Shown here in pieces: positions 17,961 to 38,668 of a DNA stretch of 41,997 nucleotides. Each line of letters begins with the position of its first letter. The stretch's first letter is position 1. Source of the DNA: Bigelowiella natans CCMP2755 (taxonomy: Eukaryota; Protista; Cercozoa); the NCBI GenBank assembly GCA_000320545.1, contig ADNK01003537.1, positions 1 through 41,997 of the forward strand. The letters are read 5' to 3'. Both the position numbers and the translations under genes were made by a program. The notes under the pieces were generated by a model, which saw only the letters and a program-made list of their open reading frames with translations, ran no database searches and was not told the origin of the DNA.

Positions 17961-18034
17961 GTTTGATAGCATTGTGTTGTGAGATGCTCATACGAAAAAC
18001 TTGTTTAAAGAAATGTGTTATATGTAAGTTAGTT

Positions 18035-18652
18035 ATGAACAAATCTAACGAATTGGTGAAAAAATTATTAATTCTTTCTAAATCTAATGACATTGAGAAT
18101 GCTATTGAAGAATGGAAATCTCTGAAAAGTTGTGCGATAGGTAAGCATAAAAAATGTATGATTTCTTGTCAACGATATTGTAGAAGTTTCATAAATTTAG
18201 AAACTTGTAATGTCATATATCTCAAAAACAAATATAGTGAATTAAGTGAATATAAAAATGTTGATGTGGAAGCATCTGCCAACTTTTCAACGAACGAAAA
18301 ACTCTTTTCATATGGTCTTTACAATTACCTAAATGAAAAAAAACGAGTTTTACAACAATTAAACAAAACAAAATATTCGCACAGTTTAAGTCTCAAATTA
18401 AGAGCTAAAAAATCAATCAGTTTCCACGATTTTTTTGAAATTTACAAAAATAAATTAGGCTTTGAAGGATTAATCAAGTTGTTTTTGAAAATTAAAAAAA
18501 TGAGAAAAGTCAAAAACATTTCTAAAAGACACAAAGAATTATTTGATTTCTGTTATGATTTGTTAAAAAGAAAATACAAAAACAAATATTCCATTTATCT
18601 ATCATACAATTATCCAGAAAAAATAACACAACTAAAAAAGAATGTCGTTTGA
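18035..18652 (+). CDS. Hypothetical protein, 205 aa, Cys-containing N-terminal domain
   Basis: Lys-rich ORF. ATG 18035 lies 23 nt after TGTTTAAAGA, so the start is corrected from the ORF track. Confidence 0.7.
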   Translation: MNKSNELVKKLLILSKSNDIENAIEEWKSLKSCAIGKHKKCMISCQRYCRSFINLETCNVIYLKNKYSELSEYKNVDVEASANFSTNEKLFSYGLYNYLNEKKRVLQQLNKTKYSHSLSLKLRAKKSISFHDFFEIYKNKLGFEGLIKLFLKIKKMRKVKNISKRHKELFDFCYDLLKRKYKNKYSIYLSYNYPEKITQLKKNVV

Positions 18653-18660
18653 AAAACAGT

Positions 18661-18815
18661 CACATATGCCGTGCCGAAGCAATATGCTGATAAATATGCG
18701 ACTGCTATTACGAAGCGATATGCGACTGCTATATGCGACTGCTATTACGAAGCGATATATCGTGCTAATACACTGCCATTACAAAGCAATATACTAATAG
18801 ATATGCGACTGCTAC
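18661..18815 (+). repeat. Degenerate minisatellite (ATATGCGACTGCT units)
   Basis: Four atatgcgactgcta copies plus attacgaagcgata x2. Confidence 0.8.
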
Positions 18816-18919
18816 AACATACATGCTTAACAATATAAGCTATTAGCAAAAGGATTCCAGTTTTACAAAACATCCAACTATGATTTCTATTTAAAGAATT
18901 GTCTCACTATAAGATTAAT

Positions 18920-19117
18920 ATGAGTAATATTAATCAAGTAAATAAAAGTAGCACAGCAGATAAAATCTATGATGTTGACTATAAACTTAGTGAAATCGTC
19001 CTCGTAATAGATGAACTAAAAGCCGAACTGAATCCTGAATTCTATCGCAAACTGAGAGATAAACTGATGGAAGTCCACATTTGTCTAATGAGCGAAGTTG
19101 TAGATGGCTATAAATAA
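18920..19117 (+). CDS. Small hypothetical protein, 65 aa
   Basis: ATG 22 nt after TATTTAAAGA (18888-18897). Confidence 0.65.
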   Translation: MSNINQVNKSSTADKIYDVDYKLSEIVLVIDELKAELNPEFYRKLRDKLMEVHICLMSEVVDGYK

Positions 19118-19161
19118 CCATATTTGCTCCAGACTGGACCCGATGTGTGTGCGGAAGCAGT

Positions 19162-20553
19162 CTACATAGCGATGCGAAGATACTCCCCAGATTTGAGACG
19201 ATTACTACCATCACTCCCACCAACAGCAAACAGTTTGCCATCCCCAACAGCCACACCCAACCCACTCCTCACAGTATCCATATCAGGCAGTTTCTTCCAC
19301 CCCGCACCCACATTCTTCAAATCCAGATACTCCCCAGATTTGAGACCCCACCCACCATCATACCCACCAACAGCAAACAGTTTGCCATCCCCAACGGCCA
19401 CACCCAAACCACTCCTCTTAGTATTCATCTCAGGGATTTTCGTCCACCCCTTCATCTCCAGTAATTTTCGTTGTCGCTCTGCTTTTTTCCTCCTTCTTTC
19501 TGCTTCTTCTTTCTTCCTTCTTTCCGCTTCTGCTTTCTTCCTATTTTCTGCCTCAATGTGCGGTCGAATATCCACCGATTTGTCCACTGTGAGGTCGTCC
19601 AGTCTCTCGACGATGTAGGCACTCACCAGCATCTCAGCTTTATGCTTTCCTTTTTTCATCCTGCCTAGCAATCGCTTCCTTTTGAGTTCCTCAGCGATTA
19701 GATTGTGCTTTCTTCCTTCGTCGTTGATGTCTGCCTCCTCATATTCATTTCTGAGTCGTGTGATTTCTTCAGTGGTCTTGTTATACAGAGTTTGAATAGA
19801 ATCCGACAACTGAATTTCCGCTTGGGCGACCGCAGTTATAGTTGCTTTGTCCCCACACTTTCGCAAGGAGGAAAGACTGTGCCCTGTGAAGGATACCCCT
19901 TCCACTATGACACTTTCATCGCTCAACTGAGACACAACTGATATTTTCCCATCGTTGAATTTGTATTTCAGCACAAATTTTGTGTCATTATGCTTGAAAA
20001 CATACTGCTCCGTCGTAAGTTTGTAATCGACTTTCAAACTCTTCTGACCATTCACAATTTCCCGAGCATCCCTTAATTTGCTACAAACTTTCCTTCCTTC
20101 CAACATGTCGGTAATTTCCTTGATTTTCTTGCGATGTTTTCCCAAAATGTCTCGCTGGGTCATAATTTCACGGATTGTGTCTCGCTCCTCGCACTCACCA
20201 TCCAACCCTTCGTCATCCTCTCCTTCATCGCTTTCTCCACCTTCAATTTCATTCTCCAGTTTCCTCAATTGAGTCTCACATTTGGACATATCTTCCTCTC
20301 GCTTCTTCAACTCGTGTTTCAAATTTTCTTTCCAACACTTCAGATGATTTTCTAGTTGCTTCACTTTCTCGCTCACAATCTTGTCTTTGTTGCTCGTTTG
20401 ATTCCCAGAAACAAAGAAAGTCGCAGTGGATCCACGGCTTGTCGAATTTTCGGGGCCACCAATGCCTGAAGCATTCGACACTTTCTTTCGCCTCTTGTTT
20501 TGTCTGTAGCTCACTTTCCAATCATCTTTTCCCAAGAATTGTGACACAGACAT
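19162..20553 (-). CDS. Coiled-coil protein with about two C-terminal Kelch repeats (truncated propeller)
   Basis: 463 aa. 49-aa repeats MxTxRSGLGVAVGDGKLFAVGGxDG..LKSGEYL; 147-bp DNA period. More GC-rich than its flanks. Confidence 0.8.
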   Translation of the reverse strand: MSVSQFLGKDDWKVSYRQNKRRKKVSNASGIGGPENSTSRGSTATFFVSGNQTSNKDKIVSEKVKQLENHLKCWKENLKHELKKREEDMSKCETQLRKLENEIEGGESDEGEDDEGLDGECEERDTIREIMTQRDILGKHRKKIKEITDMLEGRKVCSKLRDAREIVNGQKSLKVDYKLTTEQYVFKHNDTKFVLKYKFNDGKISVVSQLSDESVIVEGVSFTGHSLSSLRKCGDKATITAVAQAEIQLSDSIQTLYNKTTEEITRLRNEYEEADINDEGRKHNLIAEELKRKRLLGRMKKGKHKAEMLVSAYIVERLDDLTVDKSVDIRPHIEAENRKKAEAERRKKEEAERRRKKAERQRKLLEMKGWTKIPEMNTKRSGLGVAVGDGKLFAVGGYDGGWGLKSGEYLDLKNVGAGWKKLPDMDTVRSGLGVAVGDGKLFAVGGSDGSNRLKSGEYLRIAM

Positions 20554-20670
20554 TGTCCTTCCTGATGCTTGATGTCACCAGTCTACACACAGACACAACC
20601 TTCTCTGGTCCTGATTTAGTCACAGGTGTGGAGAGTCTCCAGAGTCTGTTTTCCAAAAAATACATCCAAC

Positions 20671-21753
20671 TTAATTCACGAAAAATCCCCTATCAACTTG
20701 CTTTCTTTTTCGCTTACTTGTCCGTATTTCAACAGGTTCATCGGTCCACCTCTCCCTTGGTTTCGGTGTTTTTTTCTCAATTGCTTTTTTCACTATTTCG
20801 TTTTCAGCAGGTTTCAGTTGATTCTTGCTGAAAGTTTTGTCTAAAACACCTTCCAAAATATATCTTACTGGTCGGTCAGGTAATAATAATATGTTTTCAA
20901 TTTTGTGCGGTTTCAACGAATATCTTATGTCGCCCTCCCTGAAATTGCCTATTTGTTTCTCTCCTTTGAAATTCACAGGATAATCCAATTTGTATCTCAC
21001 CTTCCTACCGACCTCGTATAAATCACAATCGCCTCCCTCCTTACAAGGAACTTCTCCTGTCTGCTTCAACTTCTTCACCTTAGCATTCTCGTTCAACTTC
21101 TTCAATATGTCAGGTAATAACTTTAACCACTGCTTACTTACTTTGTCGTTCTCTAATTCTTTCACCAACTGAGTTTTAATAATAATACTGCCGATACTCT
21201 TATTTCGTGCTTCAACATTTGCTTGTTGACTATGTCTCGCAATACCTGCTCTTCTTAAATATATACCTTTCTCTCTCAAATACCCATCTAATCCTTTTTT
21301 AAACTCACTACCAGCATCTACCTGAAGGATTTTCGGCGGTTTTAATACCTTGTTCTCGTAATATATCTTGTCTATCGCTTTTCTTACCGCTTCAGCAGTT
21401 CTGTATCGTAGAGGTATAGCATCAGTTTGTTTAGTATAATTATCTACTGCTACTAATAAATATCTAAACCCACTATCATTAGGTAGATACAACAAGTCCA
21501 TCTGTCCTCGTTTACCTGGATACCCATAGGCATCGTTGTGGGTTGCTTTTACTTCAGGGTCTTGCTTTTTCTCCCTGGTCAGTTCATCTACTAAATCCTT
21601 ACTCTTCTTGCCGATTAAACTTCCCAGTATGGTTGGTTTCTTCTTTCGTTTGACTATCTTTTTCACTATTTTCTTTTTAGGCATTTCAGTTTCAGTATCA
21701 GTGTCATCATCATCACTACTGCTTTCACTACTATAAGGTTCTTTCTCGTCCAT
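20671..21753 (-). CDS. Retroviral-type (rve) DDE integrase
   Basis: QMDLL (D), RYLLVAVDNYTK, LQVDAGSEF (D) and NVEARNKSI (E). Polinton/mavirus-type C-terminal YEVGRKVR segment; no chromodomain evident. Confidence 0.92.
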   Translation of the reverse strand: MDEKEPYSSESSSDDDDTDTETEMPKKKIVKKIVKRKKKPTILGSLIGKKSKDLVDELTREKKQDPEVKATHNDAYGYPGKRGQMDLLYLPNDSGFRYLLVAVDNYTKQTDAIPLRYRTAEAVRKAIDKIYYENKVLKPPKILQVDAGSEFKKGLDGYLREKGIYLRRAGIARHSQQANVEARNKSIGSIIIKTQLVKELENDKVSKQWLKLLPDILKKLNENAKVKKLKQTGEVPCKEGGDCDLYEVGRKVRYKLDYPVNFKGEKQIGNFREGDIRYSLKPHKIENILLLPDRPVRYILEGVLDKTFSKNQLKPAENEIVKKAIEKKTPKPRERWTDEPVEIRTSKRKRKQVDRGFFVN

Positions 21754-21795
21754 ATATACATAATGTGAGATATAAAATATATGTAGTTTATTTTA

Positions 21796-21990
21796 ATGGA
21801 TAAAGAAATAGAACGAATGCTCATACACAAGGGATTAACCAAAGGAATAATAAGTATGATAGATGAATACCTATATCAAAGTTATTTAGTGTGTTTAACT
21901 CACAATTTCCGCAGACTTAACAATAGTCCTAAACTTAAGTTCATCAACAAATTAAATTTTAAAAAAAAAATATGTAAATTAATAATATAG
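21796..21990 (+). CDS. Small hypothetical protein, 64 aa
   Basis: ATG in an AT-rich context, tightly packed within the element. Confidence 0.5.
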   Translation: MDKEIERMLIHKGLTKGIISMIDEYLYQSYLVCLTHNFRRLNNSPKLKFINKLNFKKKICKLII

Positions 21991-21994
21991 GAAT

Positions 21995-22171
21995 ATGATA
22001 AAGTTAATATATGAATTAATCGTAAATTTACTGCCTGACAATTTTACAACATACAGGAATGATGATGCTGTTGTGGTTTATGACAGGTCAGTGTGGAAGA
22101 TGGAAAGCAGGGACGATGCTATCTTATTGATTAAGAAGAATATATGTAATATGTCAATAATAAATTGTTAA
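21995..22171 (+). CDS. Small hypothetical protein, 58 aa (not in the ORF track)
   Basis: MIKLIYELIVNLLPDNFTTYRNDDAVVVYDRSVWKMESRDDAILLIKKNICNMSIINC*; fills the intergenic gap and is followed by a hairpin. Confidence 0.55.
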   Translation: MIKLIYELIVNLLPDNFTTYRNDDAVVVYDRSVWKMESRDDAILLIKKNICNMSIINC

Positions 22172-22271
22172 TATATATTTATTCCAGATTTCATTTTCAA
22201 CACATTCAACCCTCTTGAAGGTGTTGAAACACAATATTAAATTAAATATAAAAATATATAGTATAATATAT

Positions 22272-23231
22272 ATGAATAGTATACTCAAAGATGTTGACAG
22301 AACTTCTCTCTTTCCAATCAGGCACAAAGACATATGGAATGCCTACAAGATACAACAAGCAGGATACTGGACCGCTGAAGAAATAGATTTCAGTAATGAT
22401 GCCGATGACTTCTCCAAATTAAGTCAGGACGAACAAAAGTATTTAAAATATACCCTTATCTTCTTTGCGAATAGTGATATTGAAGTGAATGAAATGATAA
22501 ATAGGAATCTATACGAGGAGTTTAAGGCATTAGAAATTCGTATGTGCTACGACTTTCAAAGGCAAATGGAAAATATACACACAGAAACATACAATCTACA
22601 GATAGATACTTTGATAAAAGATAAAAAAGAGAAAGAGGATTTGATAAATGCTGTAAAGAATAATCCTATCATAGAACAAAAGATTAACTTCTGTAGGAAA
22701 CAGGTCTTGTTATACAACTCCATACAGCATAAATTGATATGTCAGGTCATCTTTGAAGGCATATTCTTCGCTTCTTCGTTTGCTTGTATTTACTACTTCA
22801 AGCAGAAGGGTATATTGAAAGGTCTAACTTTATCTAATGAGTTTATCAGCAGAGATGAGAACCTACATTATAGTTTCAGCATTATGCTATACAATAAGTT
22901 AGAGAAGAGACTATCACAAGCAGAAGTAGCGGTGTTGTTTGATAAGGCACTATGTATTGAGCGAGACTTCATCACACAAGCATTGCCTGTTAGATTGTTA
23001 GGAATGAATGCGGATATGATGTTAGACTATATCAAATTCACAATAGACAACATATTACTCAAATTAGGTTATGATACAATCCACAATGTGAGTAATCCTT
23101 TGACCTGGATGGAAAGACTGGATTTACAAGGCAAGACCAATTTCTTTGAGAGTAGAGAAAGCAACTACCAATCCGCTAATGTATTAAACGAGAACAAAGA
23201 AGACATCTTTGAAGTAGATTTAAATTTTTAA
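22272..23231 (+). CDS. Ribonucleotide reductase small (beta/R2) subunit, class Ia
   Basis: WTAEEIDFSND, FFANSD, MENIHTETY, EGIFFASSF, NEFISRDENLH and KTNFFE motifs. True ATG at 22272. Confidence 0.96.
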   Translation: MNSILKDVDRTSLFPIRHKDIWNAYKIQQAGYWTAEEIDFSNDADDFSKLSQDEQKYLKYTLIFFANSDIEVNEMINRNLYEEFKALEIRMCYDFQRQMENIHTETYNLQIDTLIKDKKEKEDLINAVKNNPIIEQKINFCRKQVLLYNSIQHKLICQVIFEGIFFASSFACIYYFKQKGILKGLTLSNEFISRDENLHYSFSIMLYNKLEKRLSQAEVAVLFDKALCIERDFITQALPVRLLGMNADMMLDYIKFTIDNILLKLGYDTIHNVSNPLTWMERLDLQGKTNFFESRESNYQSANVLNENKEDIFEVDLNF

Positions 23232-23248
23232 TATCTAAATTATTATAG

Positions 23249-23464
23249 ATGCTACTGGAAATAGTTAGACTATTACAATTACAACTACGATTAAAAAGAT
23301 TAAGAAAAGAGATAAACAAATTGATAAAGCAAAACAAGAAACTGATAAAAGAGAACAGCAAATTGTTGATACAATTAAATATTATGAAACAACCCTTTGA
23401 TGACACTGGTGATTTAACTGATAGTGCTTTTAGGATGTTGATGAACGAAGTAAATGAAAAATAA
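23249..23464 (+). CDS. Small coiled-coil protein, 71 aa
   Basis: TCTA motif 11 nt upstream; Leu heptads. Confidence 0.6.
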   Translation: MLLEIVRLLQLQLRLKRLRKEINKLIKQNKKLIKENSKLLIQLNIMKQPFDDTGDLTDSAFRMLMNEVNEK

Positions 23465-23479
23465 TCTAATCTTTATTAA

Positions 23480-23590
23480 ATGATTGTAGTGTTATTAATA
23501 TTAGGACTTATCTTTTCCATAGGTTATACGATAGGAAAGATAGTAGCAAGGAACACGGATTTAGACCCCACCAACGATATTAGAGTATGA
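23480..23590 (+). CDS. Small single-pass membrane peptide, 36 aa (not in the ORF track)
   Basis: MIVVLLILGLIFSIGYTIGKIVARNTDLDPTNDIRV*; TCTA 11 nt upstream. Confidence 0.55.
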   Translation: MIVVLLILGLIFSIGYTIGKIVARNTDLDPTNDIRV

Positions 23591-23891
23591 TAAGATTAAA
23601 TCTATCAGCATAGTCCTCTAAACTATCCTTCAAATCAGGTTTATTCCACAAGACCCAACGAGATAATGAACCAGCAGTCAGGAATTTGCTCCAATCTTCA
23701 TTCTTCATATGCCTTGTCAGGTATCTATCTTTTCTGTTTATATCTTTATGTATCGTAAAGTCGCTATACCGACTATCTCCAAAGTCGGTGTGTTTTACTT
23801 TTATTATCCTTCCACCCTTATCAACATAAAAGAGCATCCTATGCTTCTTATTTTTAAGAGGTGATTTCATTAGTTTAATATATATTTTCAT
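23580..23891 (-). CDS. Conserved giant-virus/virophage small protein (DUF5754-like)
   Basis: FGDSRYSDFTIHKDINRKDRYLTRH..EDW..AGSLSRWVLW pattern, recognised from memory. Confidence 0.7.
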   Translation of the reverse strand: MKIYIKLMKSPLKNKKHRMLFYVDKGGRIIKVKHTDFGDSRYSDFTIHKDINRKDRYLTRHMKNEDWSKFLTAGSLSRWVLWNKPDLKDSLEDYADRFNLIIL

Positions 23892-23906
23892 ATTATAATG
23901 ATTAAC

Positions 23907-23941
23907 ATAAAATAAATTGTTAAAAAAACAATTTATTTTAT
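23907..23941. terminator. Perfect AT-rich hairpin downstream of the MCP gene (15-bp stem, 5-nt loop)
   Basis: ATAAAATAAATTGTT-aaaaa-AACAATTTATTTTAT; a second 10-bp stem at 23951-23974. Confidence 0.6.
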
Positions 23942-24008
23942 ATTAAGAGGAAAAATAAATTTCTATTTATTTTTTCTTGTTCTTAACAAAAATATTATAA
24001 TATAAAAT

Positions 24009-25832
24009 TTATAATAACGAAGAGAGTTTCTTTTTCATTCCGCCACCACTTACGGATGCTTTACCTCCCATCTTTTTCTTGAGCACATTTGCTCCCATTT
24101 TAAGAACGGCATCTTGAACTTTAGGATTAGAGGCAATATTTTTCACAGTTTTCCCAACTTTAGATGCTAAACTGCTGAAGAACCCTGAACCGACTAATTT
24201 GTTTTCAACATCACTTCCTCCAAATTGTGCTGATAATACATCCTGTTCTGTAATAAGGTTCTTAACAATCATAGAAGAACCTGCTACAGTCTTGAAAAAT
24301 CCTGATTGAGGGGTCATAACTACAAGTTGAAGGTTTGGAATAGCAACATCACCCATTGCTGTAGGTTTCATACAGGTTGCTTGGAGTTGTAGTGTGTAGT
24401 TTCCAATCACACCTGGTGCTTGAGAAGGGTTTAATTCAATATCTTTACCCATTTTAGCAATGACGAACCCACCGCTCGTGTGGATTTTTCTGCCTTTACT
24501 TCTACTGCTTCCAATATAGGTGTGGAAATCAATTTCTAATCCATTATCATAACTCATCTTGTATAATTTATCCACAGGCATTGTGTTTAAAAGACCGCTT
24601 CTGTTATCAAAGGTAATGTTTAAATTTGTGATGGGAAAATAGAATTCGTTTTCGGTCGCATCATATGTTGTTTTCTTAACAGCAATAATTAAACTATCAG
24701 GGATACTTGGTAATGTTATGGTGGATGATAATATGGTTTTACTGTTGTTTATCCCTTGAGGAAAACCATTACTATCAATAGTTCTATATGTAGGAAACTC
24801 CATATATGGGACAATATTTTCAGGACTGACTTTGAGGTCTAAAGCAGGAGTTAAATACACAACATCTATATAACTTTGTAAAAATGGTCCTGGTTTATTC
24901 GCTAATGTAACGAATTCTGCTCTACAGGTTATAGCACCTGCTTCAGCACCGATTCTGTTTCCATCGTAGCAGACTGCTCTACTTGGGTCTTTGAAATTGA
25001 TTTGGAGGGTAGCATTATTAACACCGTATAAACCTACACTATGATAATTCTCAGGAACATAGCATAAAGGACTAATCATAAGTTTCTCTTTGGATGTAAA
25101 TTTTAGGAAAAATTTATATTCTGCTTGGACTTGATTTCCAACTGCTCTTGCGACTGGTTCGCCATCTACATATGGATAAGCAACACCACCTATGTTCACA
25201 TTTCCATTAAAGTTGTCCGCTAAAACATTGCCATTTTCATCTACAAAGTTCACATCAAAATGTGCTCCATTCTTGTGGTAGAATTTATCGCCGTCAAAGA
25301 ACCCAGTAATACTATTATTGAATGCTCCTTTGCCTTCGCTATATTTTCCATAAGGTGATAAATAGGAAGGGCAAATCGCACTGCTACTATCATATTTTGG
25401 GTCAGTAGTCATTAGAAGCAACTGCTCGTTAATGGATTGGTCTAAATTGGTCGTAGATACTGTATCGTTGATTTGTAAACTCATTGTGGAAACCATTCTG
25501 TGTAAAGGGAAGTTGTTTAAGGATAAGATTTCACTTAAGGTTGCGATTTTAGCACCGGCAGCAGGGTTTCCATCCACACCAAAATCAACAGTAGTCTTAA
25601 AATCACCTCTGTTTAAGGTGACTAAAAGGGTGACCTCGGAGGTCCAGTTTATCTTTCGGTCAACGAAGACATTTAAAGAAGGTATGGTAATGTTATAGTT
25701 TTGATTACTCGCACTTGCGGATAAGGATTTAATCTGTTTGTTATTGACTGACATAGAACTCTTAGAGATTTTGTATTCAGGTGGTAACTGAACTGTTCTC
25801 GCATCATAAACTGCTTTCTTACTTAAATTCAT
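24009..25832 (-). CDS. Virophage major capsid protein (double jelly-roll)
   Basis: 607 aa. NITIPSLNVFVDRKI, FPLHRMVSTMSLQIND, LMISPL, TITLPSIPDSLII, ITNLNITFDNRSGLL and APGVIGNYTLQ segments; Gly/Lys-rich C-terminal tail; adjacent to the penton gene. Confidence 0.92.
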   Translation of the reverse strand: MNLSKKAVYDARTVQLPPEYKISKSSMSVNNKQIKSLSASASNQNYNITIPSLNVFVDRKINWTSEVTLLVTLNRGDFKTTVDFGVDGNPAAGAKIATLSEILSLNNFPLHRMVSTMSLQINDTVSTTNLDQSINEQLLLMTTDPKYDSSSAICPSYLSPYGKYSEGKGAFNNSITGFFDGDKFYHKNGAHFDVNFVDENGNVLADNFNGNVNIGGVAYPYVDGEPVARAVGNQVQAEYKFFLKFTSKEKLMISPLCYVPENYHSVGLYGVNNATLQINFKDPSRAVCYDGNRIGAEAGAITCRAEFVTLANKPGPFLQSYIDVVYLTPALDLKVSPENIVPYMEFPTYRTIDSNGFPQGINNSKTILSSTITLPSIPDSLIIAVKKTTYDATENEFYFPITNLNITFDNRSGLLNTMPVDKLYKMSYDNGLEIDFHTYIGSSRSKGRKIHTSGGFVIAKMGKDIELNPSQAPGVIGNYTLQLQATCMKPTAMGDVAIPNLQLVVMTPQSGFFKTVAGSSMIVKNLITEQDVLSAQFGGSDVENKLVGSGFFSSLASKVGKTVKNIASNPKVQDAVLKMGANVLKKKMGGKASVSGGGMKKKLSSLL

Positions 25833-25862
25833 ATATAATTACACCGAGAAAAAAAATTTAAA

Positions 25863-27152: not shown

Positions 27153-27177
27153 TATTAATAAAATTTAGATAATTTTT

Positions 27178-29241: not shown

Positions 29242-29254
29242 AACTTATATATAT

Positions 29255-30919: not shown

Positions 30920-30961
30920 TATTTACTATAAAAAATAATATCTAATTTTTAATAATAAACT

Positions 30962-31821
30962 ATGCCTTATTTATTATTAAAAAAACTAAACAGAATAGAT
31001 GAAAATGAGAATAAGAACCTGAAACCCATAGCGATTGTTAAGAGTGAGAAGAAGGACAAAGACCCTTTACATAATGCTTTTTTATACTAGATATGGATGA
31101 TAAACCGAATTCAAAGAAGAAGACAAAGATTGAGTTGGATTTCCACCAAAAATTTGAGATACTACCGAACACAAATTCAGACAAGAGGGATGTTATGTAT
31201 ATTGCTGGTGCAAGTGGTTCAGGTAAAAGTTATATTACCAAACAGATAGTGAATAATTATGCGAAACTGTATCCTAAACGAAAAATATTTATAGTCTCTC
31301 GTTTAGATGAGGATGAAACATTAGATGGTATCAAAAGTAAAAATATTATAAAATTAGACATACCATCTTTAGTAGAGACACCATTTGATGTCAACAATCC
31401 ATTATTTTATAAAAGTTGTTTTATCGTTGATGACTGTGATGCTTTACCAGATAAAAATGAAGATAAAGCAGTTCAAGATTTAATAGACCAAGTGAGTTCA
31501 ATGGGCCGACTCCATCACAAAAAAAAAGACGAAGATGGTAATAACACAGGACAAGGTGGGATAAGTTTGTTTTTTATCACACACTTCTTATCAAATTACA
31601 AAAAAAGTCGATTGATTATGAATGAAGCAACCCATTATGTCCTTTACCCTCAATCAACGGCAACAAACCAATTATATTATGTGTTGAACAAGTATTTAGG
31701 CTTAGAGAGAAAAGAAATATCAAATTTAAAGAAAATGGGCTCTCGATGGGTAGTGACACATAAGAACTATCCTCAATACATAATAGGTCAATATTCCGCT
31801 GAAATCCTTCATCAAACTTAG
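30962..31821 (+). CDS. A32/FtsK-HerA-type packaging ATPase; the N-terminal 42 codons (30962-31090) are in a different frame (-1 shift needed)
   Basis: Walker A GASGSGKS, Walker B FIVDD, MGR arginine motif, ITH, RLIMNEA. The upstream segment KPIAIVK..FLY resembles virophage ATPase N-termini and carries the TCTA motif. Confidence 0.9.
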
Positions 31822-31859
31822 ATTTTAATAAAATATTTAATCAAATATGTTATTAAAAT
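31822..31859. terminator. Hairpin between the convergent ATPase and HNH genes (17-bp stem, 1 mismatch)
   Basis: ATTTTAATAAAATATTT-aatc-AAATATGTTATTAAAAT. Confidence 0.6.
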
Positions 31860-31861
31860 AA

Positions 31862-32686
31862 TTAACCAATAAATCTATTACCTTTGCTTCTATTTTCAGT
31901 AGCCCACAAGGGTTGAGTATTAGTATAATGCAATCGTTTAATGACTTCTTCTAAATCAGGTGCCTTACCCCCTGCTTTGTATCTAATAGGTGTAATGTGG
32001 TCTATCTCCCACATTCCGTAATTTTCCCAAGTCATACCTTCTTTAAATTTACTTTCTAAATATTTTTTATATTCTTTAATTGTTGTGCCTAAATATTTGA
32101 TGGAGCTTTTACTTTTGTTTGCTTTTAAAGCTCCTCTCACAGCATTTGAAACGGTAGATTGTAAGTATCCTAGTGGGTCGCAGATTTTACAAAATCTTTT
32201 TTGTATTCCGTGATTACAAATAGAACCACCTCCACAATTTTTACAATTTGTTCTTATTTTGTTGTGTTCACAAATGGAACCACCCTTACATTTTTTACAA
32301 ATACTTCTTATTTTGTTGTGTTCACAAATAGAAGCTCCTTTACATTCTTTACAAACATTTTTTTGTCTTCCGTGTTCACAAATAGAACCACCTTTACATT
32401 CTTTACATATACTTTTTCTTTTTCCGTGTTCGCATATTTGACTACCTCCACAACAGACACATCTATTTCTTCTCTTTCCGTGTTCACATTTGCTTTTTTG
32501 TCTCCATTTTTTATCACATTCTGCTTTTTTTTTTTTAACTTCTTCATTGTTTCTATACCTTTTTGCTGTTCTCCTACACTTAATACAAGTTTTTAATTTT
32601 CTCCCTTTCTCATTTAAAAAATCTTCAGGTAATCTATGACATTTGCACCTGTTACATTTTTCGTATTTGATTTCTTCATTACTCAT
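31862..32686 (-). CDS. HNH-type endonuclease with an N-terminal Zn ribbon and six 18-aa CxH..CxxC repeats
   Basis: CEHxxxxxxCKxCxGxSI repeats; GMTWENYGMWEIDHITP...HYTNTQPLWATENRSKG. Confidence 0.85.
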   Translation of the reverse strand: MSNEEIKYEKCNRCKCHRLPEDFLNEKGRKLKTCIKCRRTAKRYRNNEEVKKKKAECDKKWRQKSKCEHGKRRNRCVCCGGSQICEHGKRKSICKECKGGSICEHGRQKNVCKECKGASICEHNKIRSICKKCKGGSICEHNKIRTNCKNCGGGSICNHGIQKRFCKICDPLGYLQSTVSNAVRGALKANKSKSSIKYLGTTIKEYKKYLESKFKEGMTWENYGMWEIDHITPIRYKAGGKAPDLEEVIKRLHYTNTQPLWATENRSKGNRFIG

Positions 32687-32749
32687 TTCTCATACTTTTG
32701 TTAGTCATTATTTCTTTAAATAATATAATTATCTAACTCTATTGTATAT

Positions 32750-33064
32750 ATGGATAATAAAGAACTGGTCTTGGATGTGAAGCACTCACAAGAGTTCAAA
32801 AAGCGATTGGAGCAGGAGATACTACACAAAATGGAAGTGGAGGATGCGAAATTAGAGAACACATATCAATCTTGCTGTATGACTAGCGATAAACGAGCAT
32901 TAGAGTTTTTCTTAAAGAGCGGAGTCATATTTAGTGTGCTTGTGTTCAGTATGCTACAAGTTATTACAGTTAATAATTCGTCCGAGCGGAATGCTTTTTT
33001 AAATATAGTAATATTAATACTGGGTACATTCTTGCCGTCGCCAAAGATGAAGGATAATAAATAA
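32750..33064 (+). CDS. Small two-TM membrane protein
   Basis: Two hydrophobic helices ending LPSPK; TCTA motif upstream. Confidence 0.75.
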   Translation: MDNKELVLDVKHSQEFKKRLEQEILHKMEVEDAKLENTYQSCCMTSDKRALEFFLKSGVIFSVLVFSMLQVITVNNSSERNAFLNIVILILGTFLPSPKMKDNK

Positions 33065-33065
33065 T

Positions 33066-33300
33066 GTGAAGCAAAGCGAATACTGCGACTGCTATGTGCT
33101 GTGCTATGTGCTATATGCTGTGCCGTGCTATGTGCTGTGCTATGTGCTATATGCTGTGCCGTGCTATATGCTGTGCCGTGCTATGTGCCGTGCTATGTGC
33201 TGTGCTATGTGCTATGTGCTGTGCCGTGCTATATGCTGTGCCGTGCTATGTGCTGTGCTATGCTATGTGCTGACATGTGCGGATGCTGATATATGCGAAA
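33066..33300 (+). repeat. Minisatellite of TGTGC/CGTGC/TATGTGC units
   Basis: Direct reading; produces spurious CYVL/CAVL ORFs. Confidence 0.9.
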
Positions 33301-33315
33301 GCAACAAGTGTTTTA

Positions 33316-34080
33316 TTATTCTGCTTTAAGTTCACTTGCCATCAGTTGGTCATAATCTACATCATCCTCTTTTTCTTCATCATCAAACCTACTTTTGCCC
33401 CAAAATGCCTTTTGATGCACATTTCTCAAATCATCCAGTGTGACTGCTTTCCATTCTCGGTTTCTATTAACTTGAAACCAATATCTTTTTCCATTTTGTG
33501 TCACATAGGTAGTAAAACCTACTTTGTATTGCTGTGCATAACCCATCTCTCTTTCCACAAATTCCATTACCATTCTTGTCGCCGTTCTGATTTCTTCCTC
33601 TTTCATTTTTGGCAACAACCACTGCATAGTCTTGTCAATGTCTTCCAATGCTTCTTCCATTTCTGCTCTCTTTGATTTGAAAGTTGTCAACATATAATTC
33701 CATACCGCTCGTAATTGTCCCTCATATTGAAAATATCGCATACTGCCTTTCTGCATTTGGTTAAGTTTCTTCATTTCTTGACCATATATTTTACAAGAAC
33801 TCTTACGGATTTGTTCTATGTTGATTGCATCCTTCTTAATCTTCTTTTTGACACTTTCCAAATTAGCATACCATTGTGAAGCAATCCCATTTGATGCAAT
33901 TTGTGCAGGTTGTGAAAAGTTTTGAGGTTTGTAGGTCTCTATTTGCTTGACCTGTAATTGTAATGGTGCTTTTGGGTCACAGATTTCCATTTGTAATTTT
34001 AATTGTTTGCAAAGGGATGTCATCTTTGCATCGCCGTCGTTGACCCTAAGATTGCTCGTAGCATCACAAAGCATTCGCAT
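33316..34080 (-). CDS. Hypothetical protein, 254 aa
   Basis: Long ORF with plausible composition; no family recognised. Confidence 0.65.
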   Translation of the reverse strand: MRMLCDATSNLRVNDGDAKMTSLCKQLKLQMEICDPKAPLQLQVKQIETYKPQNFSQPAQIASNGIASQWYANLESVKKKIKKDAINIEQIRKSSCKIYGQEMKKLNQMQKGSMRYFQYEGQLRAVWNYMLTTFKSKRAEMEEALEDIDKTMQWLLPKMKEEEIRTATRMVMEFVEREMGYAQQYKVGFTTYVTQNGKRYWFQVNRNREWKAVTLDDLRNVHQKAFWGKSRFDDEEKEDDVDYDQLMASELKAE

Positions 34081-34234
34081 CTGGTTGCCGTTGTCAGCAC
34101 CGCCTTGTAGTCGCTTTGTGAGGTTTAATGGAGTGCTAAAGAAAGAATAATTAAATAATTAGTAACTATGTATCTCCTCCCCCTCTAATGGGTTGAAATT
34201 ACAAATTAAAATAAAATAAATATAAATATATATT

Positions 34235-34855
34235 TTACCTTGTATCCTGAGGAGTTTGATACCGCTTGTCAATCGTTCCTTTCTTCGTAAGTTTTGTCAC
34301 ACCCAAAGTCAGGGTCAAGACCTTATTCTTCTTGCTTTTCTCATCACAGGTCTTGTCTGTAGACTTATTCTTCTTGCTTTTCTTATCACAGGTCTTGTCT
34401 GTAGACTTGGGGAGACCACCCAATATTTTGCTTTTATCAACTGGGGTAGGCACTTTGTATTGCTCTGCGAACTGCTCTCTGAGGTTGTCGTAGTAAGGGT
34501 CTGCTGGAGGCGGTCCAACACCATTAAGCAGGTCTCGTATTTGTTGTGGATTTGTATACATATGTGCGACATCTCGCATATATTTGAGTAGTTTCTTGTT
34601 TCCCTTGTCCTTTTCCAGTGCCGAAACGATTATGGAGATATTAGCATTCCAATCATCACTACCAATTTTGAATGCTTCCTCATTTTCATCCATTAGGATT
34701 TCATTAAAATCGCTCAACCATTTTACTCGCTTTTCCAAGTATTTCTCGTAATGTTTAAATCCAGGTTTTTCTACTGGAGCAGAATTCCACAATTCGTCCC
34801 AAGACCCGAGTCTCTGACTTTGAGCAAGTAGTTTTGATAGTGGTGTTTCCGCCAT
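34235..34855 (-). CDS. Hypothetical protein, 206 aa, with a 14-aa tandem duplication
   Basis: KSTDKTCDxKSKKN x2 (42-bp repeat, 34323-34406); C-terminal LTKKGTIDKRY. Confidence 0.65.
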   Translation of the reverse strand: MAETPLSKLLAQSQRLGSWDELWNSAPVEKPGFKHYEKYLEKRVKWLSDFNEILMDENEEAFKIGSDDWNANISIIVSALEKDKGNKKLLKYMRDVAHMYTNPQQIRDLLNGVGPPPADPYYDNLREQFAEQYKVPTPVDKSKILGGLPKSTDKTCDKKSKKNKSTDKTCDEKSKKNKVLTLTLGVTKLTKKGTIDKRYQTPQDTR

Positions 34856-35035
34856 TGTAAGGAGTGTCGCCTTTTTTGGTGAAAATAATTAAATTGTAGG
34901 GCATTTTGAGAACATTTTTGCCCCTTGTGGAAATAATAAGAGTATTTTGGAATTGCAGGGGGTTTATAATCGTGCAACACCACAAAATGAAACGGTGTAA
35001 CACGAAAATAACTTTTCTGGCTCTTCCCAATGGGA

Positions 35036-35150
35036 GGGGTAGTGCTTTTTGGCTATTTATAGTGTTAGGGGTAGTGCTTTTTGGCTATTTATAGTGTTAG
35101 GGTAGTGCTTTTTGGCTATTTATAGTGTAGGGGTACTACAATTTTTGCTA
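35036..35150 (+). repeat. About 3.5 tandem copies of a ~31-bp unit GGGGTAGTGCTTTTTGGCTATTTATAGTGTTA
   Basis: Direct reading of the sequence. Confidence 0.9.
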
Positions 35151-35203
35151 TTTTTGGAGTTTTAGATTATGTGAATTTACCGAAGCTAAAAGGTCAATCT
35201 CAA

Positions 35204-35330
35204 TGCGAGTGCAGATTTAAAATCTGCACTCGCACTCAAGTGCAGATTTTTGAAACCGACTCGAGTTCCATAAATAGAATTTTTCTGCACTCGAGTTCCA
35301 TAAATAGAATTTAATCTGCACTCGAGAGCA
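35204..35330. repeat. Perfect palindrome with 15-bp arms followed by 30-bp-period direct repeats
   Basis: TGCGAGTGCAGATTT-a-AAATCTGCACTCGCA (35204-35234); ACTCGAGTTCCATAAATAGAATTT at 35259 and 35289. Confidence 0.9.
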
Positions 35331-36333
35331 GAATTACCAAAATCCTATTAATAGCACCCCTTGGTATTCACCAAAGGCGATTTGTTTTTCCCCTGCTTGT
35401 CGCCTTGTCTTACTATCCTCTCGTTTTCCCCAAATCGTTTACGAGGGCATTTATTTATTTTTTGGTCACAATTTCTTGTCGCAGGGTAAGAAATTGGTTG
35501 TCGCACTTTCCTAATCTCAAATACTATGGATGTGAGATTTTCTACAGTGTATCAGAGAGTCTCTGGTTCTCTAAAAAGAAATGCCCTCACTTCTAGGAAT
35601 TTTCTACGAATCATAATTTAAAATTTCGCAGGTGTGAATACCCACATCAACTCCCATCTCTCTACTTGTCTCCAGTTCCTTCCTAATCAGTCACAAAGCT
35701 ATGTTTCTCAAAACTGTAACTTAAGATTGAAAACTAACAATATCAAAGTTCTTTATGAAACATAAACCTATGGTCCTACCTAAAAAAATAGCAAATAATA
35801 AATAATAAATAAAATAGATGCTATTAGATAAAAAGCCAAATGCAAATACAAGTCACGAAAATACATTACCTACTGACCTACTAAGACTCAAAATCAGCAG
35901 TTTTTAGCTTTCATAGCACAATACAACTGAAATATTCAAAACACACAGAAATAAAAATATTTTCTTCAGATATTTAGAAGGTAAAATGAGAAGGTAGAAG
36001 AGAAATTAGAAGTAAAAATGAGAAAACAGAACATTTGCTGGAAAAATACAACTGAGTTATCAACTGTGGACATTAGCAAGTTGTAAAAAATAGAAAAATA
36101 ACTTTTAGTAGTGTTTCAGTTGGAAAGCTGAGAACTGAAAAATATTTGCTTGTAAATATAGATGTGTTTGTATGTAGCTGTAGCTACTACGACCTATTAA
36201 CACTTCGCATCTCAGTGTGGAATACAATTTAGTTTTGGTTTCTTCTTCCCACCCCAACATTTATCATAACACTACACTGTTCAAAGGGTTGAAAACACAA
36301 ATCACAGCAATTAAACAATACATATATGAATGC

Positions 36334-36343
36334 TATTTAAAGA
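36334..36343 (+). promoter_or_regulatory. TATTTAAAGA putative early promoter motif (representative of 7 copies)
   Basis: Also at 18002 (variant), 18888, 32713 (minus), 36633, 38196 and 38630; each 22-29 nt before an ATG. Confidence 0.7.
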
Positions 36344-36367
36344 TATATTAATATATATATCATATTA

Positions 36368-36604
36368 ATGAGCAATAAAAATACTATAGCGAAAACAGAC
36401 ATGTTCCGCCACCAAAAACTTTATTATCGTCGCAATAAGGACAAATTAAACAAAAGGCGAGTATTAGCAAACTATAAACATAAATATGACGGCATTATTG
36501 ATACTCAAGAGAAACTTGAGAAGTTTAGAAAGCACAAAAAAATATACTTACAATTAAAACTGCTTGACAAAGAGTTGCTGACTGCCTTTAGTAACTTGTT
36601 ATAA
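36368..36604 (+). CDS. Small basic hypothetical protein, 78 aa
   Basis: QKLYYRRNKDKLN basic helix; promoter motif upstream. Confidence 0.7.
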   Translation: MSNKNTIAKTDMFRHQKLYYRRNKDKLNKRRVLANYKHKYDGIIDTQEKLEKFRKHKKIYLQLKLLDKELLTAFSNLL

Positions 36605-36667
36605 GATTATTAAGGTTAGAAATAATCGTTATTATTTAAAGATAAAAATATATAATATAATATATAT

Positions 36668-38191
36668 ATGGATAATATTAATCCTGCTATTCTGGACTAT
36701 GCGAACAGCATCAGTGTGCTTAATGAGAAACCTGTCATCACTGTTGATTACAGATTTTTTACCGATGTGTTGCCTACTTACAGCGACGAATGTTGGGCAA
36801 AACTATTTTATGATTTGAACAAAGATGCTTACATATACAATCAGGAACATAAGATTTGGTTCTTCTACGATGAGAACAACATTGTGAAGTCCTACAAAAA
36901 GGAAGCACCAGTCTTTCTAAACAACCAAATTTCCACATGCTTACAGCATGTCCTAAAAACAGAGTTTGCTAAGATTGGAAAGGATAAGAAATACAAAGCA
37001 GAATACTTAAAGAATTTTAGAAAGGTGGGAAGCAATGCCTTTAGTAAGAACATCATCGCAAAACTAATGAAATACTACAACGATGAGGATGTATTGAACA
37101 AAATAGATAAAAATAAGAACCTATTAGCATTCAAAGATTGTGTGTATGACCTTGAAACAAAGAATTATAGAGATATAGAAAAGAAAGACTTCATTTCTAA
37201 TCACATCAAATTCAAACTTAAACCCAGAAGATCAATTAAACAAGAGGTGAGAAAGGACATATTGGATTTCATTTTCGGCATACAGGAAACACAACAAGAT
37301 GCTCTGTTTCTGCTAAAATTATTAGCAAACAGTCTCTTTTACAATAAGTTTGGATTGCTAATTATGTTTTTAGGAAGTGGTGGGAATGGGAAAGGTGTCT
37401 TAACTGCTCTTCATCAAGTAGCAACTTCCAAATATTGTAACATAGTTTCTTCTCAGTTCCTAACAACGAAATACAAAGCGAATGCCCCTAATAGTGATTT
37501 ATATAAATGTATGGATAAGCGATTGGTTGTTGTTAATGAACCTGAAGAAAATGAAGGCGATAAAGAACTATCTTTCAATGTAAGTTTTCTCAAAAAAATT
37601 ACCGATAATGATACAGTTAGTTGTAGAGAGATGTATGATACCCCTGTGGAATTCCTTGCTGATTTTAGCATCTTCTGCTTATGTAATAATGCTCCGAAAT
37701 TAGATAGTGTAGATGATAGCATTAAACGAAGGTTCTTAAACATCCAATTCCCTTTTCAATTCAAAGAAAAACCTGACCCTAAGAACAAATATGAAAAGAA
37801 AAGAGATTACACTCTCAAAGATAAGTTCAGAAACAACAAAGAATATCGTAGAGAATACATCAAACTATTGTTAGAACATGTAGATATGGAGAAATTAAAC
37901 CCTCCCGAAAAGGTATTAAAATTCACAAACGATTATTTAAACGATAACAATCACACCTTAAATTTCATTGAAGAGAATTACGATGTTACTGATGATGTTA
38001 GAGATAGAATTTTATACAACGATATTTATAAACACTTTAAAAGTTGGTCTCCGGTTTACATATCTAAAAGCAACTTCAAAAAGCAAATGTTAGCAAACAA
38101 ATTTCTTTTTGGTAAAGTGAGAGGAAGGTTCTACTTTAAGAAATTAATAAAGAAAGAAGATGATGAAGAAGAGGTAGATATAAATGTATAG
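36668..38191 (+). CDS. D5-like superfamily 3 helicase (no obvious primase domain)
   Basis: D5_N-like NLLAFKDCVYDL; Walker A GSGGNGKG; Walker B VVVNE; motif C LCNN; SIKRRF arginine finger. Confidence 0.92.
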   Translation: MDNINPAILDYANSISVLNEKPVITVDYRFFTDVLPTYSDECWAKLFYDLNKDAYIYNQEHKIWFFYDENNIVKSYKKEAPVFLNNQISTCLQHVLKTEFAKIGKDKKYKAEYLKNFRKVGSNAFSKNIIAKLMKYYNDEDVLNKIDKNKNLLAFKDCVYDLETKNYRDIEKKDFISNHIKFKLKPRRSIKQEVRKDILDFIFGIQETQQDALFLLKLLANSLFYNKFGLLIMFLGSGGNGKGVLTALHQVATSKYCNIVSSQFLTTKYKANAPNSDLYKCMDKRLVVVNEPEENEGDKELSFNVSFLKKITDNDTVSCREMYDTPVEFLADFSIFCLCNNAPKLDSVDDSIKRRFLNIQFPFQFKEKPDPKNKYEKKRDYTLKDKFRNNKEYRREYIKLLLEHVDMEKLNPPEKVLKFTNDYLNDNNHTLNFIEENYDVTDDVRDRILYNDIYKHFKSWSPVYISKSNFKKQMLANKFLFGKVRGRFYFKKLIKKEDDEEEVDINV

Positions 38192-38230
38192 TATATATTT
38201 AAAGATTTATCTCTTATATATATATAATAT

Positions 38231-38617
38231 ATGAGTAATAGAGTTAGATTAAAGTTTCAAGCATATGATAATAAATCCAAGGAAAGAAAACAAAATATAA
38301 AGAAAAGGAATAAATTCCTATACACAAGAAGGTATGACTTCAAAAAGGAAGGTAAAAAGTATCTCCCTGATGCTACTACAGCAAATGAAATCATCGCGAG
38401 GAAAATAAACAAACTGAAAAACAGAGGGAAAATAAACGATAATACTGAAATCCAAGTCGTTTATATCTTACAATACAACATACCAATATCAGGAAGAATA
38501 ACAACACTCGGTGATGGTGTTCACTATCCAAGCAATAGACAGGAAGGGTTCGGTAGCATAGACCTTCATAGGGACGATTTTTTAATACAGTCCGTTCTAA
38601 TTAATTATTTCAAATAA
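38231..38617 (+). CDS. Hypothetical protein, 128 aa
   Basis: ORF between helicase and polymerase with its own TATTTAAAGA motif. Confidence 0.7.
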   Translation: MSNRVRLKFQAYDNKSKERKQNIKKRNKFLYTRRYDFKKEGKKYLPDATTANEIIARKINKLKNRGKINDNTEIQVVYILQYNIPISGRITTLGDGVHYPSNRQEGFGSIDLHRDDFLIQSVLINYFK

Positions 38618-38668
38618 TATACGAAAAAGTATTTAAAGAAATACTCTTTCATATATATATTAATATAT

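What the first reader, a model, noticed from the sequence alone, without database searches (positions are those of the whole stretch)
18002..38639. A second promoter class, TATTTAAAGA, marks replication and non-structural genes
Seen: the motif occurs at 18002 (TGTTTAAAGA), 18888, 32713-32722 (minus), 36334, 36633, 38196 and 38630. It lies 23, 22, 26, 24, 25, 25 and 29 nt before the ATG of the two left-end ORFs, HNH, the 78-aa ORF, helicase, the 128-aa ORF and PolB. I did not see it before structural genes. Known: mavirus and Sputnik genes mostly use their helper's late promoter. Inference: this element has a two-phase (early/late) programme, and the motif could fingerprint its unknown helper virus.
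Basis: partly seen in the sequence, partly recalled or inferred. Interest (0 to 1): 0.7.

Follow-up and report, generated by a model that had tools for sequence, protein, structure and literature searches.

The report
TATA-like promoter on virophage replication genes
A small virus integrated in the genome of a marine alga carries one ten-base signal at a fixed distance before its DNA-replication genes and a different signal before several particle genes; the ten-base signal also sits before genes of many unrelated giant viruses, so it is likely a shared, undescribed promoter for genes switched on before the late phase, not a fingerprint of one helper virus.

Summary
Observation confirmed. All 6 exact TATTTAAAGA copies in the window, plus the TG variant at 18002, lie on the sense strand 22-29 nt before a start codon. 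Shuffles give 0.04 such genes of 27. The element is a Sputnik-type provirophage of Bigelowiella natans (capsid 99% identical). A second signal, TCTA at -15..-23, marks 7 other genes and none of these.

The motif is not private. WTAAAG precedes 7 of 27 virophage primase-helicase genes against 1 of 178 core virion genes. The exact 10-mer occupies the same position in 15 of 79 giant-virus loci, and variants precede viral TBP and PCNA genes but not capsid genes.

It is not the canonical early motif AAAATTGA reported for ChlorV, a giant virus of this alga. Best reading: a TATA-like, post-early (intermediate-type) promoter, likely read by helper TBP/TFIIB; timing and start sites are untested. The fingerprint idea fails, and two-phase virophage expression is already published. 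Against: giant-virus PolB genes lack the strict motif (0 of 11), and the TTTAAA core also precedes late genes.

The parts
17610..41997 (.). Integrated Sputnik-type virophage (provirophage); left end approximate, right end beyond the window
   Evidence: GC drops from about 0.40-0.43 to 0.28-0.35; MCP PF21915/PF22031, penton PF21507, rve integrase, D5 helicase; MCP 99% identical to a B. natans (Bigna1) protein
18002..18011 (+). Motif variant TGTTTAAAGA, start at -33 from the ATG at 18035 (205-aa ORF, unknown function)
18888..18897 (+). TATTTAAAGA at -32 from the 65-aa ORF (18920-19117)
32713..32722 (-). TATTTAAAGA at -36 from the HNH-like ORF (31862-32686, minus); lies in a 63-nt spacer shared with the divergent 104-aa gene
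   Evidence: HNH label from recalled motif, no Pfam hit
36334..36343 (+). TATTTAAAGA at -34 from the 78-aa ORF (36368-36604); the orthologue in L281 (46% identical) keeps TACTTAAAGA
36633..36642 (+). TATTTAAAGA at -35 from the D5-type helicase (36668-38191); the orthologue in L281 (43% identical) has TATTTAAAAA at -32
38196..38205 (+). TATTTAAAGA at -35 from the 128-aa ORF (38231-38617)
38630..38639 (+). TATTTAAAGA at -39 from the PolB-like gene
38669..39860 (+). Short PolB-like gene, frameshifted in this window; a 396-aa intact copy is on record for the same alga
   Evidence: C-terminal piece hits phage DNA polymerase phrog_1907, E 4.5e-9; P0241 98% identical; contigs of three runs differ by one base at the shift
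23234..23237 (+). TCTA at -15 from the 71-aa ORF (second, late-type signal)
27166..27169 (-). TCTA at -17 from the penton/minor capsid gene
27879..27882 (+). TCTA at -17 from the lipase-like gene
29238..29241 (+). TCTA at -17 from the 554-aa ORF
32732..32735 (+). TCTA at -18 from the 104-aa ORF
40300..40303 (+). TCTA at -18 from the 203-aa coiled-coil ORF
41043..41046 (+). TCTA at -23 from the 288-aa fibre-like ORF
22238..22271 (+). Degenerate copy of the helicase upstream region before the RNR small subunit (AAATTAAATA in the motif's register)
   Evidence: repeat D15, 94% over 32 nt; register shown

Best explanation
TATTTAAAGA is a fixed-distance signal before the replication-module genes of a Bigelowiella provirophage and is likely a TATA-type core promoter of a post-early (intermediate) class, read by the helper giant virus's own TBP, TFIIB and RNA polymerase once the virus factory is running. 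Shown: position, strand, enrichment, separation from TCTA, conservation before virophage helicases, and presence at the same distance in giant viruses. Inferred: (1) it is a promoter, since its distance to the ATG is fixed while its distance to the previous stop runs from about 5 nt to over 1 kb; (2) TATA geometry would put the start site about 30 nt downstream, within roughly 10 nt of the ATG; (3) newly made helper TBP/TFIIB would bind it before late factors accumulate, so helicase, polymerase and nuclease are made first; (4) TCTA genes, many of which have a weaker TTTAAA at the same place, would wait for helper late factors. The virophage would thus borrow two successive promoter classes of its helper.
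For: Enrichment and spacing in the window. TCTA at -24..-14 in 7 of the 20 other genes (shuffle mean 1.7, P=0.001) and 0 of the 7 motif genes. In 156 virophage loci, dereplicated at 80%: a weight matrix built only from the window's 7 sites scores >=9 before 5 of 27 primase-helicase genes and 0 of 178 MCP/penton/protease/ATPase genes (P=3e-5); WTAAAG 7 of 27 vs 1 of 178; AT content equal. Kept before both orthologues in L281. In giant-virus loci fetched by RFC, TTTAAAGA peaks at -36..-29 (57 of 81 hits in 1136 upstream regions), apart from the main AAAATTGA peak at about -60..-45; 68 of 906 genes score >=9 vs 14.5 shuffled. It sorts by gene family: viral TBP gene WTAAAG 31 of 44, PCNA TATTTAAAG 3 of 4, a conserved 106-aa gene exact 10-mer 12 of 16, capsid family 0 of 73 at score >=9. 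Phage-like control loci: 7 of 724, exact 10-mer 0. Literature passages: mimivirus replication genes are mostly intermediate; no intermediate promoter described as of 2017; Zamilon makes replication genes first by an unexplained control; vaccinia intermediate promoters are read by a viral TBP/TFIIB pair at an AT-rich core.
Against: No start-site or time-course data. Exclusion of TCTA from motif genes is not significant alone (P=0.087). 20 of 27 virophage helicases lack WTAAAG; in the newly fetched metagenome set alone the effect is weak (WTAAAG 2 of 12 vs 1 of 94, P=0.03; TTTAAAG 1 of 12 vs 0 of 94, P=0.11), several patterns were tried, and relatives are not independent. Giant-virus PolB genes: 0 of 11 loci score >=9; RFC 9 of 61, TK 8 of 51, MYM-zinc-finger factor 1 of 52. 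Loci fetched by capsid gene show no clear excess (12 of 612 vs 6.0, max 12; exact 10-mer in 0 of 71 loci). The giant-virus signal comes largely from one syntenic block of one group of related viruses. In megavirus the replication cluster GV-3 carries the early motif in 59% of genes and motif searches found nothing new. The ChlorV paper reports only AAAAATTGA and TCTA. Vaccinia's intermediate core has no sequence consensus. Integrase and RNR lack the motif.
Confidence: 0.5

Rival explanations
1. The motif is simply the strongest form of a general TATA-like core (TTTAAA at about -33) used by most post-early genes. It sets promoter strength, and timing is set only by the presence or absence of TCTA or by other factors.
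For: TTTAAA at -40..-28 also precedes 7 of the 20 other genes, including MCP and penton, and 5 of 7 TCTA genes (shuffle 1.2 and 0.5). TTTAAA is very common at that position in giant-virus loci. Some virophages carry a GTTTAAGAAA variant together with TCTA on the same gene (L280).
Against: The GA extension is confined to non-virion genes in the window and to helicases over virion genes in relatives; capsid genes would be expected to need the strongest promoter.
Confidence: 0.2
2. It is a TATA box for host RNA polymerase II, letting the integrated copy make helicase and polymerase in the nucleus (on a cue or at low level) before moving to the helper factory.
For: It fits a eukaryotic TATA box; TATTTAAA is called the canonical TBP-binding box of Entamoeba (abstract start in search listing). 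The host does transcribe the element: RNA contigs show many GT..AG joints and the 254-aa gene is polyadenylated.
Against: In the one stranded raw-read run, motif genes have almost no sense reads (0.2-0.45 for helicase to PolB, 0.21 for the HNH bin, against 150 for the motif-less 254-aa gene), and no read starts pile up at motifs. These reads look 3'-biased, only about 6% of the run was read and infection status is unknown, so this is weak. The motif is conserved at the same position in giant viruses and in virophage contigs from viral metagenomes.
Confidence: 0.12
3. It is the true early promoter of an as yet unknown helper whose packaged early machinery reads it.
For: It lies before replication genes, as AAAATTGA does in Gezel/PgVV. 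Position is similar to giant-virus upstream promoter elements. The 36 NCLDV-like genes in B. natans are <35% identical to ChlorV, so other helpers may exist.
Against: Viruses that carry it also carry AAAATTGA as a separate signal at other genes, and it is too widespread to single out a helper. The TCTA late signal points to CroV/ChlorV-like helpers, whose early motif is AAAAATTGA.
Confidence: 0.1
4. It is a binding site for a virophage-encoded regulator, or a spacer homogenised by local duplication, with no helper involvement.
For: Upstream regions of RNR and helicase are 94% alike over 32 nt; some virophages have near-identical long upstream blocks before several genes (L006, L280).
Against: The seven sites share little outside the 10-mer, lie on both strands up to 20 kb apart, and the same word is positionally fixed in giant viruses.
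Confidence: 0.08

Closest known systems
Bigelowiella natans provirophages (Blanc et al. 2015, PMC4586850; paper not held, seen only through passages of PMC6723459 and PMC13196603)
   Same: This is one of them: MCP 99%, RNR 100% and PolB 98% identical to Bigna1 proteins; low GC; host-transcribed.
   Different: No promoter classes for them were found in the passages read; the original paper could not be checked.
Mavirus / type-4 EMALE TCTA promoter = CroV and ChlorV late promoter (PMC8547959, PMC13196603, PMC6723459; passages)
   Same: TCTA in AT-rich context at -15..-23 before 7 genes here.
   Different: Mavirus has TCTA before all genes; here replication genes lack it and carry a different signal further upstream.
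Mimiviridae early promoter AAAATTGA as used by Gezel/PgVV-14T and some Sputnik genes (10.1101/2022.07.28.501842, PMC11998528; passages)
   Same: A second helper-type signal placed before virophage replication genes.
   Different: Different sequence; AAAATTGA precedes none of the genes here and 1 of 27 related helicases.
Vaccinia intermediate promoter read by VITF-3, a viral TBP/TFIIB pair (PMC12917281; passages)
   Same: AT-rich core upstream of a start site close to the ATG; proposed to work likewise.
Zamilon and Sputnik two-wave expression (PMC11464507, PMC11998528; passages)
   Same: Replication genes expressed before morphogenesis genes.
   Different: Those studies found no motif explaining the first wave; this element offers a candidate, not yet shown in those viruses.

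Membership tests
Sputnik-type virophage (provirophage) | Virophage major capsid protein and penton | tested here: met
   PF21915 E 3e-37, PF22031 E 8e-35, PF21507 E 2e-17
Sputnik-type virophage (provirophage) | Packaging ATPase and maturation cysteine protease | tested here: inconclusive
   ATPase: weak P-loop hits; protease: no Pfam hit. Both seeded iterative BLAST groups of related virophage proteins.
Sputnik-type virophage (provirophage) | Integrated in host DNA with integrase and terminal inverted repeats | tested here: inconclusive
   rve integrase E 5.5e-10, host-like flank with microsatellites; the right end is outside the window and no genome is held, so terminal repeats were not seen
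Sputnik-type virophage (provirophage) | Replication depends on a giant virus | not testable with these tools
   Needs co-infection
Mimiviridae early promoter (AAAATTGA) | Octamer AAAATTGA or close variant upstream of the gene | tested here: not met
   Different word; one copy in the element, inside an ORF
CroV/ChlorV/mavirus late promoter (TCTA) | TCTA in AT-rich context shortly before the ATG | tested here: not met
   0 of 7 motif genes; met by 7 of the 20 other genes
NCLDV intermediate promoter (vaccinia type) | AT-rich core at fixed distance upstream of the start | tested here: met
   Motif start at -32..-39 from ATG in 7 of 7; distance to the true start site unknown
NCLDV intermediate promoter (vaccinia type) | Found before the helper's intermediate-type genes and not before late genes | tested here: inconclusive
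   TBP 31 of 44 (WTAAAG), PCNA 3 of 4, capsid 0 of 73; but PolB 0 of 11, MYM-zinc-finger factor 1 of 52 at score >=9 (TTTAAA core 40 of 52)
NCLDV intermediate promoter (vaccinia type) | Read by viral TBP/TFIIB after early protein synthesis and before late transcription | not testable with these tools
   No time course, start mapping or binding assay
Host RNA polymerase II TATA box | Drives starts about 30 nt downstream in uninfected cells | tested here: inconclusive
   No read starts at motifs and very low sense depth, but only 70 reads on 35400-40000 from a 3'-biased-looking run
Helper-specific fingerprint motif | Restricted to one giant-virus lineage | tested here: not met
   Exact 10-mer at -44..-28 in 15 of 79 dereplicated loci from different giant viruses; ChlorV itself could not be scanned

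The most novel reading that the evidence does not exclude
WTTTAAAGA at about -33 is the missing intermediate promoter of mimivirus-like giant viruses, the box read by their own TBP, and a subset of Sputnik-type virophages has copied it onto helicase and polymerase genes to get a replication-first programme inside the factory. This would explain the unexplained first wave of virophage expression and can be tested now in the B. natans-ChlorV system.
Probability: 0.35. Interest if true: 0.72.

Novelty: new variant of a known kind. Interest (0 to 1): 0.52.

Why it matters
Virophages have no RNA polymerase, so their promoters show which stage of the helper's machinery they tap. Two published gaps meet here: no intermediate promoter had been described for mimiviruses (PMC5294985, 2017), and Zamilon's replication-first order was left as a hidden level of regulation (PMC11464507). 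A crisp 10-mer shared by virophage replication genes and giant-virus TBP/PCNA genes is a concrete candidate and a binding-site prediction for the viral TBP. A cultured alga with these provirophages and a lytic giant virus (ChlorV) now exist to test it. It also warns against using this motif to pair virophages with helpers. An earlier virophage motif survey used only 30 nt upstream (PMC5636890), which would cut off a motif starting at -32..-39.

Tried and rejected
Whole-genome analysis of other copies: no genome is held. Single-protein scans with MCP and RNR found no relatives in viral contigs. A helicase alignment was too divergent to scan. The RNR scan returned mostly phage-like loci (judged from few strand switches, not annotated); L197-L256 served as a negative control. 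mis-split the helicase class and was redone. A whole-record pattern search on L399 failed. ChlorV and CroV sequences could not be obtained, so the motif was not tested in the likely helper group. No RNA holder is listed as RNA on record; contig depths (lowest over helicase-PolB in X1, X3, X6) were not used as expression evidence. Raw reads gave no start sites. A terminator role was rejected because spacing is fixed to the ATG, not to the previous stop. PDB and Pfam gave no hit for the PolB N-terminal part. Literature searches for the motif and for promoter classes listed no paper reporting it in a giant virus or virophage. Not seen: Blanc 2015, Fischer 2015, Sheng 2022, ChlorV Fig. S6 and supplement, EMALE motif logos; any of these may show it.
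Full report
What the window is. Bases 1 to about 17,600 are host-like DNA with microsatellites. From about 17,610 to the window end lies an AT-rich, gene-dense element with a Sputnik-type capsid and penton, rve integrase, RNR small subunit, lipase-like gene, P-loop ATPase and D5-type helicase. Its capsid is 99% identical to a Bigelowiella natans (Bigna1) protein, with the next non-identical relatives at 94% and then about 42%; RNR and PolB match Bigna1 proteins at 100% and 98%. It is therefore one of the B. natans provirophages of Blanc et al. 2015, which I could read only through passages of PMC6723459 and PMC13196603.

The observation. All seven sites and gaps are correct. The 6 exact copies are the only ones in the window; each is on the sense strand before an ORF. 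In the element, shuffles give 0.46 copies (max 3 of 300); in 27 upstream regions of 60 nt they give 0.037 genes (max 2 of 5000); and no G/C-containing 10-mer was shared by more than 3 genes in 2000 shuffles, against 6 observed. Motif starts fall at -32..-39 (P about 1e-4), while the distance to the previous stop codon runs from about 5 nt to over 1 kb, and one site is in a divergent spacer. That points to a promoter-side signal (inference from the sequence). The label 'replication and non-structural' holds in part: helicase, PolB-like and HNH-like genes have it, but integrase, RNR and the kelch protein do not, and four motif ORFs have no known role. PolB is supported by a phage DNA polymerase hit on its C-terminal piece (E 4.5e-9).

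The other class. TCTA lies at -24..-14 in 7 of the 20 other genes (shuffle 1.7, P=0.001), 10 of 20 if TCTC is allowed (adds MCP, protease, integrase), and in 0 of 7 motif genes (P=0.087 for the exclusion). So the two classes may share a core, with a GA tail on one and a downstream TCTA on the other.

Other virophages. I fetched 76 and 80 loci around related capsid genes (30-40% identity). After dereplication at 80%, a matrix built only from the window's 7 sites scored >=9 before 5 of 27 primase-helicase genes and 0 of 178 capsid, penton, protease and ATPase genes (P=3e-5; rank test P=0.02); WTAAAG gave 7 of 27 vs 1 of 178; AT content was the same. Most helicases (20 of 27) lack it, several patterns were tried, and the second set alone was weak (2 of 12 vs 1 of 94). 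L281, one of the closest loci, keeps a 77-aa ORF and helicase in the same order (46% and 43% identical) with TACTTAAAGA and TATTTAAAAA before them. AAAATTGA preceded 1 of the 27 helicases.

Giant viruses. In 80 loci fetched by a clamp-loader gene, without regard to the motif, TTTAAAGA peaks at -36..-29 from the ATG (57 of 81 hits in 1136 distinct upstream regions), the reverse complement shows no such peak, and AAAATTGA has its main peak at about -60..-45 with a second at -32..-21. 68 of 906 dereplicated genes score >=9 against 14.5 in base shuffles (max 21 of 30), and the exact 10-mer is at -44..-28 in 15 of 79 loci. By family: viral TBP (PF00352) WTAAAG 31 of 44; PCNA 3 of 4; a conserved 106-aa gene exact 10-mer 12 of 16; capsid family 0 of 73 at >=9; TK and eIF4E favour AAAATTGA (21 of 51, 17 of 28). 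Results against: 78 loci fetched by capsid gene show no clear excess (12 of 612 vs 6.0; exact 0 of 71), RFC 9 of 61, a MYM-zinc-finger factor only the bare core (TTTAAA 40 of 52), and PolB 0 of 11 loci. These viruses were not placed on a tree; calling them mimivirus-like is an inference from GVMAG names, Nucleocytoviricota labels and AAAATTGA use. Phage-like control loci gave 7 of 724 and no exact copy.

RNA. No holder is on record as RNA. Contigs from runs guessed to be RNA show many GT..AG joints across the element on the plus strand, including antisense through the capsid genes, which fits host read-through. In the one raw-read run, a motif-less 254-aa gene is abundant and polyadenylated, motif genes have almost no sense reads, and no starts pile up at motifs. 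About 6% of that run was read, 70 reads fell on 35400-40000, the library looks 3'-biased and infection status is unknown. This leans against a constitutive host TATA box but does not test the promoter claim.

Literature (passages unless noted). ChlorV, a giant virus of chlorarachniophytes including B. natans, has early AAAAATTGA and late TCTA, and encodes its own polymerase and factors (PMC13196603; supplement unreadable). Mavirus-type EMALEs use TCTA; other types have other motifs shown only in a figure I could not see (PMC8547959). Gezel/PgVV uses AAAATTGA before its polymerase (10.1101/2022.07.28.501842). Sputnik has 5 early and 17 late genes with no new motif (PMC11998528). Zamilon expresses replication genes first by an unexplained control; no new megavirus motif was found, and cluster GV-3 has the early motif in 59% of genes (PMC11464507; supplement rows). 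No mimivirus intermediate promoter was known in 2017 (PMC5294985); mimivirus replication genes are mostly intermediate (PMC8400408). Vaccinia VITF-3 is a TBP/TFIIB pair on an AT-rich core without consensus (PMC12917281). Lake virophage motifs were sought in 30-nt windows and differ from this one (PMC5636890; supplement 7 whole). AaV, CpV-BQ1 and Halocafeteria papers did not show it in the passages returned. Searches for the word itself listed no giant-virus or virophage paper.

Mechanism and verdict. The most likely working: after helper infection, newly made helper TBP/TFIIB and polymerase bind the TATA-like 10-mer and start transcription within about 10 nt of the ATG, giving helicase, polymerase and nuclease first; TCTA genes follow under late factors (confidence 0.5; every step after position and conservation is inferred). 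Main rivals: a strength variant of a general core (0.2), a host TATA box (0.12), the early promoter of another helper (0.1), a virophage-private site (0.08). The element and two-wave virophage expression are known. The motif as a shared virophage and giant-virus signal was not found in the papers searched. It is a new variant of a known kind, interest 0.52; the intermediate-promoter reading has probability 0.35 and would merit 0.72.

Noticed in passing
window 38669-39860: The PolB-like gene is frameshifted here, while contigs of three runs and a 396-aa B. natans record are in frame, so the break is copy-specific or an assembly error. At 396 aa it looks too short to hold a proofreading domain; one gene model (P0244) joins the upstream 128-aa ORF to it, possibly a prediction artefact.
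   Followed up: partly
window 22272-23231: A ribonucleotide reductase small subunit inside a virophage; closest non-host relatives are 78-79% identical metagenome proteins, then about 47%.
   Followed up: partly
window 22160-22250 and 40935-41030: Two related hairpin-forming spacers (z -3.1 and -6.3), 114-nt inverted copies of each other, between genes; they resemble hairpin polyadenylation signals of mimiviruses (recalled).
   Followed up: partly
window 34860-36330: A 1.5-kb gene-free stretch with three 32-nt repeats (35037-35133) and strong palindromes (35205-35335, z -9.4) just upstream of the replication cluster; candidate origin or element junction.
   Followed up: no
window 17812-17936, 18655-18815, 33060-33290: Arrays of GTGCTAT/GCGACTGCTAT-like repeats near the left end and after the 104-aa and 254-aa genes; a poly(A) site maps at 33292 on the minus strand.
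   Followed up: no
window 23584-31688: Many GT..AG joints on the plus strand in three runs, through capsid, penton and ATPase genes, suggesting long host-spliced, partly antisense transcripts of the provirophage.
   Followed up: no
window 33316-34080: The 254-aa ORF (minus strand, higher GC, no motif of either class) is by far the most covered gene in the raw-read run.
   Followed up: no
P0243, P0244, P0245 (other B. natans copies): Decayed copies show many Tyr-to-Cys/His and Ile-to-Met/Thr/Val changes, a pattern expected from A-to-G/T-to-C mutation at TA sites.
   Followed up: no
L281:1559-5239: A close relative with the same 77-aa ORF and helicase pair has higher-complexity ORFs inserted next to its capsid gene, possibly another integrated copy with a nested element.
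   Followed up: no
L454:6594-6914 family (giant-virus loci): A conserved 106-aa giant-virus gene of unknown function has the exact 10-mer, often as AAGTATTTAAAGA, in 12 of 16 dereplicated copies.
   Followed up: partly
window 1-20: The window begins with CCTAACCCT-like repeats, possibly a telomere-adjacent position.
   Followed up: no
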